From Octopus vulgaris (Eukaryota), in NCBI GenBank assembly GCA_951406725.2, contig OX597815.1, positions 174,964,001 to 175,028,000 of the forward strand: 64,000 nt of DNA, in the 5' to 3' direction. The position numbers are program-made. Position 1 is the stretch's first letter; every line of letters begins with the position of its first letter. This document shows positions 21,288 through 36,200 of this stretch, one piece after another.

Positions 21288-24200
21288 TACATACATAGAT
21301 GTAAACTTTCTACTCTATGTATATAATGTAAAGTTAAGGAATCTTTATTCCAAAATTGGAGTAATTGGAAGTGGAAAACTGGAAACAAAAATATACAGCA
21401 ATTTTGGAAATATCATCCTCTTATCTTACTTTGCTTCTATTTTGAATATGTGTGAGTGTGTGTTTGTGTGTGTAAGTCAAAGAATATTTTACTAAAACAG
21501 TTAAAAAAAAAGAATGAAAATAAAGTCTCCATCAATTGCAAAATAAATTCAATATATTGATATGAAGTGGCAGGGTTGAAACTGGATTATTTCATTGATG
21601 TCTAAAATCTACCCCAAAACTACAAACACACCCACCCACCCACCCATCTTGTTTTATTCCTTTTGTAAATCAATTCCAACTAGTTGCCTTTTTGTTACTG
21701 GAAACAAAATCAACCAAATACAGTTCACTGTTTTGGCGTTTTTCTTCTTTGTCTTTCAGACCATATTTGTTAAAACATCCAAACATCAACCCCAAGTTAC
21801 AAAGCTGCCAAAAGTAATATGGAGAACAGGTTAAACGGACATCAGCTTATGCTAAAAGCCAGTGGAAGGAATAAACTCTGGAGCATTTGGATTTAGCCGA
21901 CTATTTGCAATCTGAAATATAAGAAATAAAATAAAGTAAATGAAAAAATACAAAAATTATAAAAATATCACAAAAAGAAAACCAAATCAAAAATAGAAGT
22001 TTTGGGAGTTTTTTGTCAAAAAGTCAAAACATATACTTGTGTTAGCATAGTTTTTGTGTATATACAGTTGAATTAGTAATTTAGGAATTTACAAACAAAG
22101 GAACAAGGCCAGTGATTTTGGGGGAGAGGTAAGTTGAGGCCCCAGTGCTCAACCGGTACTTATTTTATCAAACCCAAGAGGATGAAAGGCAAAGTTGACC
22201 CCCCCCCCCAAACCCCGCAGCATTTGAACTCAGAATGTAGAGTCAAGAAATATTGGCCAGTGTGGTCACAGTTCTGTCAGCTCACTACCTTATTTCTTTT
22301 AGTAATATTAATACTAAATATGGCATGCAGGAGAGGAGGATGCGTTGGTTTGGACACGTGATGTGTATGAGTGAAGACAGCTGTATACAGAAGTGCCTGG
22401 TACCTGTGAAAGAGGGAGATCCAGGAAGACAGGATGAAGTGGTAAGGACTGATCTTGGGATGTTGGGGCTCACAGAGGAAATGACAGTGGACCGAAATGT
22501 TTAGAGATATGAGGTTCTAAGAAATCAAACTACACTTCTAAACTGCATCTTTCTTTTCCTCACATTTCCTCTTCATAAATTATGATTGTTTTCCAATCCC
22601 CTTTCTTGCCCTGCTCACTGTATCACTGCTCCCCACACCCCCAATTCTCACACACTGTTTTTCTAACCAGGTTCTACACTCATATTCCTGTGAGTATACC
22701 ACAGCAATACACCATCTCTCTTCTGCTCTCTCCCCCACTTTTGCGGTTTCCTACTCTCTCTATCTCTTTCCTTCTCATTTTTCTTGTCTAGGTAACCAAG
22801 TATCTCCTTTACATCAGCACACTTGTTTCTGGCCCCTTTCTTGTACCTCTCTCTCTCTCACTGGGTAACTGTGTACCTCCTCTATAGCAAGACACCTAGT
22901 TCTGCCTCTCTATTTCCCTGTTGCACTCTAACCTTTCATCACCCCCTTTAATGCCCCCTCTGTTGTGGAAAGACACCTGCTTCTGTCTCTCTGTCCCTTT
23001 CTAACACTCTAACCGTTCATCCTATGATACACGTTCTGCCCTTCAAATGCCTCTGCCCCTCTCATAATTACTTGTTTTGTGAGTTACTTGGTTACCCTGC
23101 CAGTGCTGCTGCCATGTTAAAAGCATCCAGACCACACTGTAACATGGTTGGCGTTTGGAAGGGCATCCAGCTGTAAAAAATCATACTAAAACTAACCTTG
23201 CCTGTGCTAGTGCCAAATAAAAAGCACTGAGTCCACTCTATGGAGTGGTTGATGTTAGGAAGGGCTTCCAGTCATAAAATCCCTGCCAAAACAAACACAG
23301 TAGCCTTGGGTGGTCTTTCTACCTGGCCGGCTCCTGTCAGCCGTCCTACTCATGCATGCATAGAAGATGGTCGTTAAACAATGATGATGATGTTATTGAT
23401 TCACTTCCTGCCCTGAAACTGCTGGTCTTGTACCAGAATTTGAAACCATTATTAGTACTCCATCTAAGAAGTTCAGGCAAATGATCAGACTATCAAATAG
23501 ATTTCTTTTAAGAGAAATACCTGTTCTTTTGTGAGTGGAGTCGATAAATGAATGTCATTGAATCTTTCTGTAAGACAACTGTTTGATAATGAACTGGGTT
23601 GTTGCTTCTCATTTAACATTTCTTCATAGGCTTCTTGCAGGCGATTCCATTCCAACTGAAAACCAAACATGCTATGATTATTAGCCACAGACAAAATATC
23701 AAACACAGACATTTCAATTCTGATAAAGAAACAAAACTTTATTAAGATTGTCAAAGAAGCTCTAAGTTAGCCCTGATTAGGTTGACTTCTGATCAAAGGC
23801 TCTTTAATTCAGATCTAGTTTATCTATATACTCCTAAAGCTCTCTGATTGCTTGCTTGTCTGTCATTTAATACAGCCAAACTGGCACGTAATAGGAAAAT
23901 ACTATGAATTAAGGTAACCCTGAGAAGTGAATACAAATGGAATAAAACAATTGGACCATGGATTCATGAGATATTGGGGCGGGAGAGTGTTCATTAAATA
24001 CCTAAAACAGTGCATAATGGGAAAATACTCCGAAAATAATATAACCCTGAAAGGGAAGAAACTTTAACCTTTTGATTAGAGACATTATGATCAATGCCTT
24101 CTGTCTTTTGAAGACAAACTTCATGACCTGGACAAAGGTGTTAGTGACTTTAATTTGCCAATGAAAAAATACGAGTTGTTTTACAGTAAATGTTTCTATT

Positions 24201-33200: not shown

Positions 33201-36200
33201 AGTGGTTAGTGAGAGCTGTACAAGCCTTGTACAGGGATGCTACCAGTAAGGTGAGGGTTGGCAAAGAGTACAGTGAAGAATTCAGGGTACAAGTAGGAGC
33301 TCACCAAGGAACGGTGCTCAGCTCCTTCTTGTGCATCACAGTCTACCAGGCAATAACACAGGAATTTAAGACAGGCTGCCTCTATGTTGATGACCTTCCT
33401 CTTATTGCTTGAATCCCTATCAGGTGTACCCGGTGTAAACTTTGGACACATAAAAGGTGCAACAATATCAGAGGAAGTTAACAAGGAAAATAGCTTTTGT
33501 ATGTGGAAGATGCACAGGTACAATAAACACCAAAAATGTACAGAAAATAGACTGCATCAACTGCCAGTGGGGTAAGTTAGAGGTAGTTGATAGCTTCCAT
33601 TATCTAGGTGACCAAGTTAGTAGTGGAGGTGGATGCTCCAAGAGCATAGCTGTGAGAATAAGAATAAGGTGGGCAAAGTTCAGAGAGTTCCTACCTCTGC
33701 TAGCAACAAAGGGTCACTCCCTCAGAGTGAAAGGCAGATTGTTTGATGCCTGTGTGCAAATAGCTATGCTACATGGCAGAGAAACATGGGCTGTGACAGC
33801 CAAGGACATGCTTAGGCTTGTAAGAAATGAAGCCAGTATGCTTTGCTGGATGTGTAATGTCAGTGTGCATGCTTGATAAATTGTAAGTGTCTTGAGAGAA
33901 AAGTTGGACCTAAAAAGCATCAGATGTGGTGTGCAAGAGAGATGACTGTGCTGGTATGGCCATGTGATGCATATGGATGAGGACAGCTGTGTACAAAAAT
34001 GCTAATTTCTAACTATGGAAGGAACCTGTGGTAGAGGTAAACCCAAAAAGACATGGGACAAGGTAGTGAAACATGATCTTCAAACTCTGGGCCCTAAAGA
34101 GGCAATGACTAGTGACCAAGACCGTTGGTGATATTCTGTACTTGAGAAGACACCCTCAAGCCAAGTGAAATGATAGCTGTGGCTGATGTTGGTGCCATAT
34201 AACTGGTAAGTAAAAAGTAACTTTTGAGCATTGGGCCTCACGGATGCAATGACTGACATCTTTTGCATTATGTCATGTTGAGAACCAGACCCATCAAGCT
34301 TAGCAAAATCACAGTTGTGGCAGATACCGGTGTCATGCAAATGGCACCCATGCTGGTGGCACATAAAAGCACTCAGTACACTCTTGGAGTGGTTGGTATT
34401 AGGAAGGGCATCCAGCCATAGAAACCATGCCAAATGAGACTGGAGTTTAGTGCAGCCTTCCATCTTGCCAGCCACAGACAAACCATCCAACCCATGCCAG
34501 CATGGACAATGGACGTTAAATGAGGATGAGGTTGAAAGCTAACGGTAAATGAAATGAAATGAATGAAACAGGGTCGTAGACCCAGTTCAATGTCATACCC
34601 AATACAATTGCTGTAGCTGTCTTAGTGTAGGGGCCTCCATATGGTCTATTCTTTTAAAAATGGGAAGAATACATTGGATAATGTAGTCATAGATACACTT
34701 GTTCAGGAATAATCATGAATGAAATGTGTTACCATTAATCCACTCAACCAGGATTGACCTGTGGTTAAACAACAACTGAGTCTAAAAGATGGAAAACAAA
34801 AGTGTTATGGAAATTGCAAATCCAAACGCTGAAATAAGAATCAGGCAAACTGCTACACATCATCATCGTCATAGTTCTGTGTAAGAGGTGGGATGAAATA
34901 AAAATTACCTGCTCTTCTGTGATGGGTAGAGAAGTTAGCTGATCTGTTGTATTCAATTCAGATTTTAGCTGAGACCCTGATGAGAAGAGCCACCAGTGCC
35001 CTTCCTTCAAGATTTCTTCAAGGATTTCTTTCTCGACCTAAATGTTGGACAATTCAAGATAAAGAAAAATATTAGGTTTATTCTATTTCTGTCAAATTAT
35101 AAAGGAAAAACAACAACACATTGGGAGAAATCATTGAACGAGAATATAATTGAATTGATTTCAATATGGCCTGAATACTTGACCAAATCAGTGAGATTTG
35201 AACTAAAAACATGAGACAATACTTTAAGGGAAATGTTGTGACCTGCTCTCAAATATAAACATGTAATAAGAGTTGACAAAGCCATTTGGGTGGTGAGGAG
35301 AATGTCTTATGGCATTTGTTCTGACTTTCTGTTCTCCAAGTTTATATCCTGTCAAGGTCAACTTTACGTTTCGTTCTTTCAGGATTAAAAAAAAAAAACA
35401 TTCCAATCCAGAACAGTAGATTGGGAGAGTTGTTAGAGTGTCAAGCAAAATGTCTTGTGGTGTCTGATTCAACTATTTGTGTTCTGACAGGAACATCCGA
35501 GATGACACTGGTGTCATGCTGCACCAGTCCAAGTTAACAATTTTTTTCCTTAGAGAAAGAGAGAAACTTGCATGGGTAACTGATAGTCTTCTTGAAAAAT
35601 ATTTTGTCCATGTATGTGCATACATGTGTACACATACATAGGGTCACCCTTGACTGATGGAAGCCCTATATAATATATAAATATAGTAAAACATAAAATG
35701 AATGTAATAAACATTTTATATGAAGATTTCTTTTTCCTTTCTGTGAATCATTTCATTTCAGCTTTTGGCTAAGTTACAGTTGTGAAATTTGAGTAACAAG
35801 AAATAGCTGAAGAAAACTGAAGGTGAGGGTGATAAAAAGAGTAAAGATGGGGTGTGACACTGACTTGATATTCACAGGAAGTTATGCCAACTTCTTTCTA
35901 GTTTTTTAATAATTGGAGAAAAGAATAAACCATGTGATGAAATCTAAAACTGGAGTTTTGAAGCCAGTCTTCTACACTGAATTGCTCAGGAAATTTCCAT
36001 AGCAACATCAATATAGAACTATTTGGGACTTGCCAATCCCTCAAATAACAGAATCCTTGCTGGGAAGGGGAAACCTATTGTATAGATCACAGCTACTCCT
36101 TTTTACTAAACTCTAGAAGAGAGAAATATCAGTGATGCATTTCCATAGCTTTTTGCAGACAAAAGGATACCAATGCCAACTTTGGCTAGTAATTAGTGTG

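What the first reader, a model, noticed from the sequence alone, without database searches (positions are those of the whole stretch)
23521..35037. PAIP2 carries a tandemly duplicated middle exon: candidate isoform switch in the PABP-binding PAM1 region
Seen: two phase 0-0 exons of 129 and 135 nt, 11 kb apart, lie between the ...FDRQ| exon and the |IANSRLNP exon. They have matching ends (SLPITEEQ|gtaatt vs STPLTKEQ|gtattt) and similar acidic starts (LEEILKE vs YEEMLNE). Known (from recall): vertebrate PAIP2 has a single exon between FNRQ and VKSNLNP. Copy A keeps the 'IEEE' start and an aromatic WWLF patch, while copy B keeps 'EEML' and 'FND'. Inference: the exon was duplicated and the copies diverged, allowing isoforms of 103 (A), 105 (B) or 148 aa (A+B) that could differ in PABP affinity and translational repression.
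Basis: partly seen in the sequence, partly recalled or inferred. Interest (0 to 1): 0.72.

Follow-up and report, generated by a model that had tools for sequence, protein, structure and literature searches.

The report
Octopus PAIP2 duplicated exon, second copy optional
The octopus gene for the translation repressor PAIP2 carries two diverged copies of its middle exon where cuttlefish and other molluscs have one, and gene records either keep both copies or drop the second, so this is a modest, lineage-specific case of exon duplication and not a true either/or switch.

Summary
On the minus strand, exon A (35037..34909, 43 codons) and exon B (23655..23521, 45 codons) are open, phase 0-0, flanked by AG and GT, and lie between the ...FDRQ exon and the PAM2 exon.

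- **Both are real coding exons.** They occur in PAIP2 records of Octopus bimaculoides, O. sinensis, O. vulgaris and Argonauta hians.
- **Splicing pattern.** Of 8 octopod records, 4 hold A+B, 4 hold A only and 0 hold B only. A looks constitutive and B looks like a skippable cassette. They are not mutually exclusive.
- **Single unit elsewhere.** Cuttlefish, gastropod, oyster, chiton and Lingula proteins have one 51-aa-type unit.
- **Duplication.** B matches that unit end to end (0 of 20000 shuffles). A matches B and the unit more weakly (local p about 0.005-0.015; 0 of 341 decoy exons). The 8-residue tails of A and B match strongly (1 of 20000 shuffles).

I favour an octopod-specific exon duplication with complementary decay (confidence about 0.7). 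A keeps the start and the aromatic patch. B keeps the EEML core and the FND block.

The effect on PABP binding is inferred, not tested. Junction reads and outgroup gene structures could not be checked. Interest is moderate to low.

The parts
42536..42637 (-). Exon 1, coding part. ATG TCG (42541..42536) gives the 'MS' of the 103-aa form. An in-frame upstream ATG at 42637 gives the T/P-rich N-terminal extension of the 135-aa record. The donor is gtaagc at 42535.
   Evidence: Sequence read. tblastn of the O. vulgaris record P0007 covers residues 1-36 at 42637..42530 with 94% identity; the two mismatches are read-through into the intron.
38029..38145 (-). Exon 2 (AN-MKYSNK...FSEYMWMGEEGVENFDRQ), the start of the PAM1-type region. 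The acceptor is ttttag and the donor gtaaac.
   Evidence: FSEYMWM and EGVENFDRQ are invariant in alignment A2.
34909..35037 (-). Exon A: 129 nt, phase 0-0, 43 aa. It is the upstream copy and is present in all 8 octopod records. It keeps the VE.E.LEE start, an EEIL.E stretch and the HWWLF aromatic patch.
23521..23655 (-). Exon B: 135 nt, phase 0-0, 45 aa. It is the downstream copy, present in 4 of 8 octopod records (a cassette). It is the closer counterpart of the single unit of cuttlefish (AYEEMLNE core, RFNDIHLS block).
21852..21911 (-). Last coding exon, carrying the PAM2 motif (SRLNPNAPEFIP) and the stop codon.
   Evidence: The relatives carry precomputed Pfam PF07145. There is a weak match to the PAM2 peptide chain 1jgn_B (E=1.5).
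25692..33876 (+). Fragments of non-LTR retrotransposon ORFs (endonuclease, reverse transcriptase) inside the A-B intron, on the opposite strand. They account for much of the 11-kb gap between the two exon copies and are not part of the gene product.
   Evidence: ORF list. Pfam hits: PF14529/PF03372 at 26114..27811, and PF00078 at 28172..28780 and 32726..33160.

Best explanation
This is the octopus PAIP2 gene, probably of Octopus vulgaris or a very close relative. In the octopod lineage, after its split from the cuttlefish/squid lineage and before Argonauta and Octopus parted, the single phase 0-0 exon encoding the rest of the acidic PABP-RRM-binding region (PAM1-type) and the linker to PAM2 was duplicated in tandem. 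Both copies stayed in frame, are spliced in series and then decayed in a complementary way. Copy A kept the VE.E.LEE start, a shortened EEIL.E stretch and the aromatic HWW.F patch. Copy B kept the ..AYEEML.E core and the RFNDIHLS block but lost the aromatic patch. Both kept the ..P.T.EQ end. Exon A behaves as constitutive. Exon B behaves as a cassette whose skipping removes 45 residues in frame, giving a long (A+B) and a short (A only) protein. By inference only, the two forms present different numbers or kinds of RRM-contacting segments to PABP, and so may differ in how well they displace PABP from poly(A). Shown: the exons, their use in database records, their mutual similarity and the single unit in outgroup proteins. 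Inferred: the duplication event, its timing, real alternative splicing in vivo and any functional difference.
For: (1) The exon anatomy is as described. (2) Exon-by-exon searches found named records containing A, or A followed by B: O. bimaculoides X1/X2 (A+B) and X3 (A), O. sinensis X1 (A+B) and X2 (A), O. vulgaris CAI9718580/81 (A), and Argonauta hians (A+B). That makes 4 A+B, 4 A-only and 0 B-only of 8. (3) The nearest non-octopod relatives have one 51-aa unit between FDRQ and the PAM2 exon. Their cluster includes a named Acanthosepion pharaonis protein. Named Patella, Littorina, Gigantopelta, Crassostrea, Liolophura and Lingula proteins are also single-unit. (4) B against the cuttlefish unit scores 62 and 58 locally with 0 of 20000 shuffles, covering unit residues 6-51; hhalign gives P=1.9e-5 over 39 columns. 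(5) A against B: BLASTP gives 15/41 identities, E=0.003. The local score of 39 is reached by 96 and 89 of 20000 shuffles, and the global score of 31 by 3 of 20000. hhalign gives P=6.3e-4. 0 of 341 non-overlapping decoy exons reach 39; the best reaches 31. (6) A against the cuttlefish unit scores 39 and 38, reached by 219 and 309 of 20000 shuffles and by 0 of 341 decoys. The alignment pairs EEIL.E..HWW.F with EEML.E...WFY. (7) End-anchored tails: the last 8 residues score 28, against 0 of 341 decoys (max 8) and 1 of 20000 shuffles. A simple insertion into one exon would not predict this. (8) The first 19 residues of B resemble the unit's core (151 and 329 of 20000 shuffles). (9) Both exons are conserved between Octopus and Argonauta: A at 50% and B at 68% identity by tblastn, with the first 19 residues of A nearly unchanged. 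(10) The AlphaFold2 model of the O. bimaculoides A+B record has low confidence overall (pLDDT 60.5). Its best-scored parts are two helices, 33-53 and 82-104, each running into the start of one exon copy.
Against: A profile of the family's conserved core, built from 23 non-octopod, non-vertebrate relatives, scores 51.5 bits in cuttlefish but finds only weak, collinear pieces in octopods. Positions 1-8 fall at the start of A (0.1-3.4 bits) and positions 15/16-21/26 fall in B (3.7-7.0 bits). MAFFT gives the same picture. That is also what one exon split by a 38-residue insertion would give. The part of A after its first 8 residues is only marginal against the cuttlefish unit (818 and 1643 of 20000 shuffles), and the part after HWWLF is not significant (1155 and 1779 of 20000). 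The hhalign probabilities are low (28% for A-B, 9.8% for A-unit) and cover only 13 columns. The cuttlefish-type protein finds exon B but not exon A in the window by tblastn at E<=10. Acidic helical segments resemble each other more than residue shuffles allow for. The isoforms are gene-model records and I saw no junction reads. The Argonauta record's name follows the O. sinensis locus, so it may not be independent. The exon structure of outgroup genes could not be examined, because no mollusc genomes are in the collections open here.
Confidence: 0.7

Rival explanations
1. A true mutually exclusive pair: transcripts carry A or B, and the A+B models are annotation artefacts.
For: The exons are homologous, adjacent, of similar length and in the same phase, which is the usual make-up of mutually exclusive pairs.
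Against: 0 of 8 octopod records are B-only, and 4 of 8 hold both exons, from three species. Joint inclusion keeps the frame (129+135 nt), so nothing removes A+B transcripts by frameshift. In Argonauta the junction ...TEDE-LEWSRL... reads through as one protein.
Confidence: 0.05
2. No duplication. One ancestral exon was split: about 38 codons of new sequence and a new intron arose inside it, so A is the old start plus new sequence and B is new sequence plus the old remainder.
For: MAFFT and the family-core profile place the single unit collinearly: start in A, remainder in B. The second half of A is not significantly like the unit. tblastn with the cuttlefish-type protein misses A.
Against: It leaves three things to chance. 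First, A carries EEIL.E..HWW.F matching EEML.E...WFY of the unit. Second, the tails of A and B match (1 of 20000 shuffles, 0 of 341 decoys). Third, the first 19 residues of B match the unit's core. It also needs a new intron with both splice sites in phase 0, which a duplication supplies ready-made.
Confidence: 0.15
3. Both exons are constitutive, and the A-only records are mis-assembled or minor noise transcripts, so there is no regulated isoform difference.
For: I saw no read evidence. PAIP2 is short, and exon skipping across an 11-kb intron could be low-level noise.
Against: A-only models appear in three separately annotated species. They are the only two models in the O. vulgaris record set found.
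Confidence: 0.1

Closest known systems
PAIP2 / Paip2A (poly(A)-binding-protein-interacting protein 2) of other animals
   Same: A short protein with F.EYMWM, an acidic region after FDRQ and a C-terminal PAM2 (LNPNAPEF.P). Sources name the octopod records PAIP2, and the relatives carry Pfam PF07145. In the human protein, residues 22-75 or 25-83 form PAM1, which is disordered. PAM1 binds RRM2 (Kd 4.0 uM) and RRM3 (1.3 uM), and the pair at 1.9 nM (passages of 10.1101/2021.02.07.430161; passages of PMC9019252).
   Different: Octopods have two diverged copies of the middle unit. The otherwise highly conserved core (51.5 bits in cuttlefish) is eroded in both copies (at most 7 bits). The net charge per unit is -6 (A) and -4 (B), against -16 in the cuttlefish unit.
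Single-unit PAIP2 of decapodiform cephalopods (cluster of P0013/P0101 with the named Acanthosepion pharaonis record CAE1317766.1)
   Same: It is the closest relative outside octopods (E 1.7e-48; 42-43% identity). It shares the MKY start, the EEGVENFDRQ-VE junction and the NS.LNPNAPEF end.
   Different: It has one 51-aa unit where octopods have 43+45 aa in two exons.
Tandem exon duplications as a class (for example as surveyed in PMC9013439; abstract and outline seen)
   Same: Neighbouring homologous exons of like length and phase within one gene.
   Different: The class is best known for mutually exclusive use. Here the copies are used in series, with the second optional.

Membership tests
PAIP2 | C-terminal PAM2 motif (the MLLE-binding peptide; Pfam PF07145) | tested here: met
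   SRLNPNAPEFIP is encoded at 21911..21855. PF07145 is precomputed for P0004, P0005 and P0006. It aligns to the PAM2 peptide chain 1jgn_B, weakly because the peptide is short (E=1.5).
PAIP2 | N-terminal F.EYMWM block followed by an acidic PAM1-type region | tested here: inconclusive
   FSEYMWM...FDRQ is invariant with relatives. The acidic core that follows scores only 0.1-7 bits against the family-core profile, against 51.5 bits in cuttlefish.
PAIP2 | Family-wide sequence relationship | tested here: met
   The profile search gave 88 proteins at E<=1e-3. Every hit that carried a source name in the two look-ups was called PAIP2 or PAIP2-like, Ataxin-2 C-terminal domain-containing, or hypothetical/unnamed.
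PAIP2 | Binds PABP RRM2-3 and MLLE and represses translation | not testable with these tools
Tandemly duplicated exons | Adjacent exons of one gene with the same strand, the same phase and similar length | tested here: met
   129 and 135 nt, both phase 0-0, with no annotated exon between them.
Tandemly duplicated exons | Mutual sequence similarity beyond chance | tested here: met
   Global alignment: 3 of 20000 shuffles. Local alignment: 96 of 20000. Decoy exons: 0 of 341. Tail: 1 of 20000. hhalign P=6.3e-4, though over only 13 columns at 28% probability.
Tandemly duplicated exons | A single copy in outgroups | tested here: met
   Met at the protein level only: cuttlefish, three gastropods, oyster, chiton and Lingula have one unit. 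0 of 64 scanned non-vertebrate-like hits had two core matches of 8 bits or more, but the octopod proteins themselves also fall below that cut, so this scan has little power. Outgroup gene structures were not available.
Mutually exclusive exons | Each transcript holds exactly one exon of the pair | tested here: not met
   4 of 8 octopod records hold both exons and 0 of 8 hold B alone. This rests on gene models, not reads.
Cassette (skipped) exon | Transcripts with and without the exon, with the frame kept | tested here: met
   B is present in 4 and absent in 4 of 8 records. Its 135 nt are divisible by 3. Read support was not testable.

The most novel reading that the evidence does not exclude
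Octopods rebuilt the PABP-RRM-binding part of PAIP2. After the exon duplication, the otherwise near-invariant acidic core decayed in both copies and its features were shared out between them: the aromatic patch went to A, and the EEML core and FND block to B. Regulated inclusion of B then switches the repressor between a weak, single-segment form and a stronger or differently targeted two-segment form. This would tune poly(A)-dependent translation by tissue, for instance in neurons, where mouse Paip2 affects plasticity and memory (as cited in the introduction of 10.1101/2021.02.07.430161).
Probability: 0.15. Interest if true: 0.55.

Novelty: new variant of a known kind. Interest (0 to 1): 0.33.

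Why it matters
PAIP2 is a small, well-studied brake on poly(A)-dependent translation, and its RRM-binding region is almost invariant across spiralian animals. An octopod-only form with two half-decayed copies of that region, one of them optional, is a natural experiment. It could show which parts of PAM1 are needed to displace PABP from poly(A), and how exon duplication creates isoforms without mutually exclusive splicing. The exons and isoforms are already in public gene sets. What is new is the reading that they are diverged duplicates limited to octopods. My searches found no paper on it (1 unrelated paper each). It is a tidy, testable case and not a surprise.

Tried and rejected
- **Pfam on the exon peptides.** Only chance-level hits for A (E 0.04 and 0.11, below cut-offs) and none for B or exon 2. 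The peptides are too short.
- **Solved structures.** Only the PAM2 peptide chain (E=1.5) and a chance MCM hit. No structure covers the PAM1-type region.
- **DNA alignment of the exons with 30-nt flanks.** Similarity is limited to the GAAGAAAT.TT.AA.GA stretch and the TCACA.AAGA.CAGGTA end. The flanking intron sequence shows no likeness, so there is no trace of the duplicated intron.
- **Extra copies in the window.** tblastn of five relatives found no further exon-like match.
- **Two-unit forms elsewhere.** None found among 64 scanned hits, but the octopod proteins themselves fail the 8-bit cut, so this is weak evidence.
- **Splice-site strength.** The donor of B (gtattt) and that of exon 2 (gtaaac) each match 4 of 6 positions of the recalled consensus GTAAGT. 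The donors of A (gtaatt) and exon 1 (gtaagc) match 5 of 6. This gives no clear reason why B is the optional exon.
- **Joined model left out.** Searches from the window were done exon by exon. Full-length comparisons used database records.
- **Complex prediction.** None was run, because no octopus PABP sequence was in hand.
- **Left unchecked.** Supplements of the papers were not opened.
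Full report
**What is in the sequence**

The gene lies on the minus strand and has five coding exons.

| Exon | Window coordinates | Content | Splice sites |
|---|---|---|---|
| 1 | ends 42536 | ATG TCG (42541..42536); in-frame upstream ATG at 42637 | donor gtaagc |
| 2 | 38145..38029 | ...FSEYMWMGEEGVENFDRQ | acceptor ttttag, donor gtaaac |
| A | 35037..34909 | 129 nt, 43 codons | acceptor tag, donor gtaatt |
| B | 23655..23521 | 135 nt, 45 codons | acceptor cag, donor gtattt |
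| last | 21911..21852 | PAM2 motif SRLNPNAPEFIP, then stop | acceptor cag |

All internal boundaries are in phase 0.

An open AG...GT phase 0-0 segment is cheap. There are 370 of them, 90-210 nt long, in the 16,117 nt between exon 2 and the last exon. The case therefore rests on homology, not on openness.

**Are the exons real?**

I searched the window exon by exon and did not join the exons into a spliced model. That joined step was left out. Full-length comparisons used database records instead.

- Exon A found two clusters and exon B found two clusters.
- With their members these give 8 octopod PAIP2 records.
- O. bimaculoides has X1 (148 aa) and X2 (143 aa) with A+B, and X3 (103 aa) with A only.
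- O. sinensis has X1 (186 aa) with A+B and X2 (141 aa) with A only.
- O. vulgaris has CAI9718580 (135 aa) and CAI9718581 (103 aa), both A only.
- Argonauta hians has a partial record (202 aa) with A+B.
- In total, 4 records hold A+B, 4 hold A only and 0 hold B only.

The window's exon 1 reading frame equals the O. vulgaris record and differs by indels from the O. sinensis one. The window is therefore most likely O. vulgaris or a very close relative.

Exon A is in every model, and exon B is the variable one. These are gene models. I could not see reads. The name of the Argonauta record follows the O. sinensis locus, so it may not be independent.

**What relatives look like**

A search with the O. 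bimaculoides record found three unnamed proteins of 105-113 aa with 42-43% identity. Each has one 51-aa unit between FDRQ and the PAM2 exon. Their 90% cluster contains a named Acanthosepion pharaonis (cuttlefish, Decapodiformes) protein with the same single unit.

A profile search of 1.84 billion representatives gave 88 proteins at E<=1e-3. Named members among the best hits are all single-unit:

- three gastropods (Patella, Littorina, Gigantopelta);
- Crassostrea (oyster);
- Liolophura (chiton);
- Lingula (brachiopod).

I set aside 24 of the 88 as vertebrate-like unnamed sequences, some possibly human, and did not use them. Of the other 64, none had two matches of 8 bits or more to a family-core profile, 35 had one and 29 had none. 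The octopod proteins themselves are among the 29, so this scan has little power.

Argonauta and Octopus are both incirrate octopods. The two-exon form is thus seen only in Octopoda, and the single unit is seen in the sister superorder and beyond. This holds at the protein level only.

**Are A and B copies of one unit?**

Exon B is clearly the counterpart of the whole unit.

- Local scores against two cuttlefish-type units are 62 and 58, with 0 of 20000 shuffles reaching them. The alignment covers unit residues 6-51.
- hhalign gives P=1.9e-5 over 39 columns.
- tblastn with the cuttlefish-type protein finds B in the window at E=0.005.

Exon A is weaker.

| Comparison | Result |
|---|---|
| A vs B, BLASTP | 15/41 identities, E=0.003 |
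| A vs B, local score 39 | reached by 96 and 89 of 20000 shuffles |
| A vs B, global score 31 | reached by 3 of 20000 shuffles |
| A vs B, hhalign | P=6.3e-4, 13 columns, probability 28% |
| A vs cuttlefish unit, scores 39 and 38 | reached by 219 and 309 of 20000 shuffles |
| A vs cuttlefish unit, hhalign | P=3.2e-3, probability 9.8% |

As an empirical null I used the decoy exons.

- Of 366 decoys that do not start at the A or B acceptor, 4 reach A's score against B, and all four overlap A or B.
- Of the 341 that overlap neither exon, 0 reach A's score against B (best 31) or against the unit (best 30 and 32).

The strongest single point is the end of the exons. The last 8 residues, anchored at the donor site, score 28. 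That compares with 0 of 341 decoys (maximum 8), 0 of the 12 decoys that also end in Q (tested over the last 10 residues), and 1 of 20000 shuffles.

**Evidence against the duplication**

- MAFFT and a profile of the conserved core place the single unit collinearly: start in A, remainder in B. The profile was built from 23 non-octopod, non-vertebrate relatives.
- The profile scores 51.5 bits in cuttlefish. In octopods it gives 0.1-3.4 bits at the start of A and 3.7-7.0 bits in B.
- An exon split by an insertion would give the same picture.
- A beyond its first 8 residues is only marginal against the unit (818 and 1643 of 20000 shuffles). A after HWWLF is not significant (1155 and 1779 of 20000).
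- tblastn with the cuttlefish-type protein misses A at E<=10.

I still prefer the duplication. The split model leaves three likenesses to chance:

- EEIL.E..HWW.F in A against EEML.E...WFY in the unit;
- the matching A and B tails;
- the first 19 residues of B against the unit's core (151 and 329 of 20000 shuffles).

The split model also needs a new phase-0 intron.

**Anatomy after the duplication**

- A keeps the VE.E.LEE start, a shortened acidic stretch and the aromatic patch. It lacks the ..FIEACF.. block.
- B keeps the W of the start, ..AYEEML.E and RFNDIHLS, and lacks the aromatic patch.
- Both copies are much less acidic than the cuttlefish unit: net charge -6 and -4 against -16.
- Between Octopus and Argonauta, A is 50% and B 68% identical by tblastn. 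The first 19 residues of A, and most of B, are nearly unchanged, so both are under constraint.
- An AlphaFold2 model of the O. bimaculoides A+B record has low confidence (mean pLDDT 60.5, pTM 0.23). Its best-scored parts are two helices, residues 33-53 and 82-104. Each runs into the start of one exon copy, and a low-confidence stretch (67-77) lies between them.
- The 11,253-nt gap between the copies is largely retrotransposon debris on the other strand. Endonuclease and reverse-transcriptase fragments lie at about 25.7-33.9 kb.

**How it most likely works**

In the human protein the PAM1 region (residues 22-75 or 25-83) is disordered and occupies the poly(A)-binding faces of PABP RRM2 and RRM3. 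It binds each at micromolar strength and the pair at about 2 nM, while PAM2 binds the MLLE domain. I saw this in passages of 10.1101/2021.02.07.430161 and of PMC9019252.

By analogy, the octopus region from FSEYMWM through exons A and B is the RRM-binding part.

- The long form offers two helical acidic segments plus the aromatic patch and the FND block.
- The short form lacks the better-preserved core and the FND block.

I infer, without a test, that inclusion of B changes affinity or valency for the RRMs, and so the strength of repression.

**Comparison and novelty**

The gene is a PAIP2 orthologue by its PAM2, its N-terminal block and family-wide similarity. Its acidic core is atypically eroded. 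The exon pair fits tandem exon duplication. It fails the test for mutually exclusive exons and fits a cassette exon.

The exons and isoforms are already in public gene sets. Text searches for PAIP2 with 'exon duplication' and with 'octopus' each returned one unrelated paper. A search on tandem exon duplication, mutually exclusive splicing and cephalopods listed no paper among its 10 best that combined cephalopods with either splicing term (310 papers held at least 2 of the 3 terms). I rate it a new variant of a known kind, of moderate to low interest.

**Left open**

- Junction reads were not available.
- Exon structure in outgroup genomes could not be examined.
- PABP binding was not tested.

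Noticed in passing
window 25692..33876 (+), inside the A-B intron: A run of long open frames with endonuclease (PF14529/PF03372 at 26114..27811) and reverse-transcriptase (PF00078 at 28172..28780 and 32726..33160) matches. These are one or two decayed non-LTR retrotransposons antisense to PAIP2, in the GC-richer stretch (0.49) of the window.
   Followed up: partly
window 49720..50994 (-): A 424-codon open frame with a strong reverse-transcriptase match (PF00078, E=2.1e-31), upstream of PAIP2 exon 1. It is probably another retroelement.
   Followed up: partly
window 8718..9443 (-): An open frame with an integrase-core match below Pfam's cut-off (PF00665, 27.6 bits against 32.6), in a 50% GC stretch. 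It is possibly a decayed LTR element or DNA transposon.
   Followed up: no
window 42542..42637 (-) and upstream to about 42900: Exon 1 has an in-frame upstream ATG that gives a Pro/Thr/Ser-rich extension. Some gene models use it (135 and 186 aa). It differs by indels between the O. vulgaris and O. sinensis records and sits in ACC/ACT-rich simple sequence. It may be 5' UTR and not coding sequence.
   Followed up: partly
P0027 (Apolygus lucorum KAF6200910.1), about residues 28-80; also P0047, P0070, P0031, P0041, P0067: Other lineages show different internal doublings in PAIP2-like proteins. The mirid bug model repeats the F.E.MWMEN.EEFD block. Several unnamed relatives carry two PAM2-like motifs in a row. 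These could be real duplications or alternative exons concatenated in gene models.
   Followed up: no
P0015, P0068, P0069, P0073, P0083, P0098 (short unnamed representatives): Six truncated relatives follow the family up to FD[RK][QK]V and then diverge into unrelated residues and stop. This is what read-through into an intron at the same phase-0 position as the octopus 38029 donor would give.
   Followed up: no
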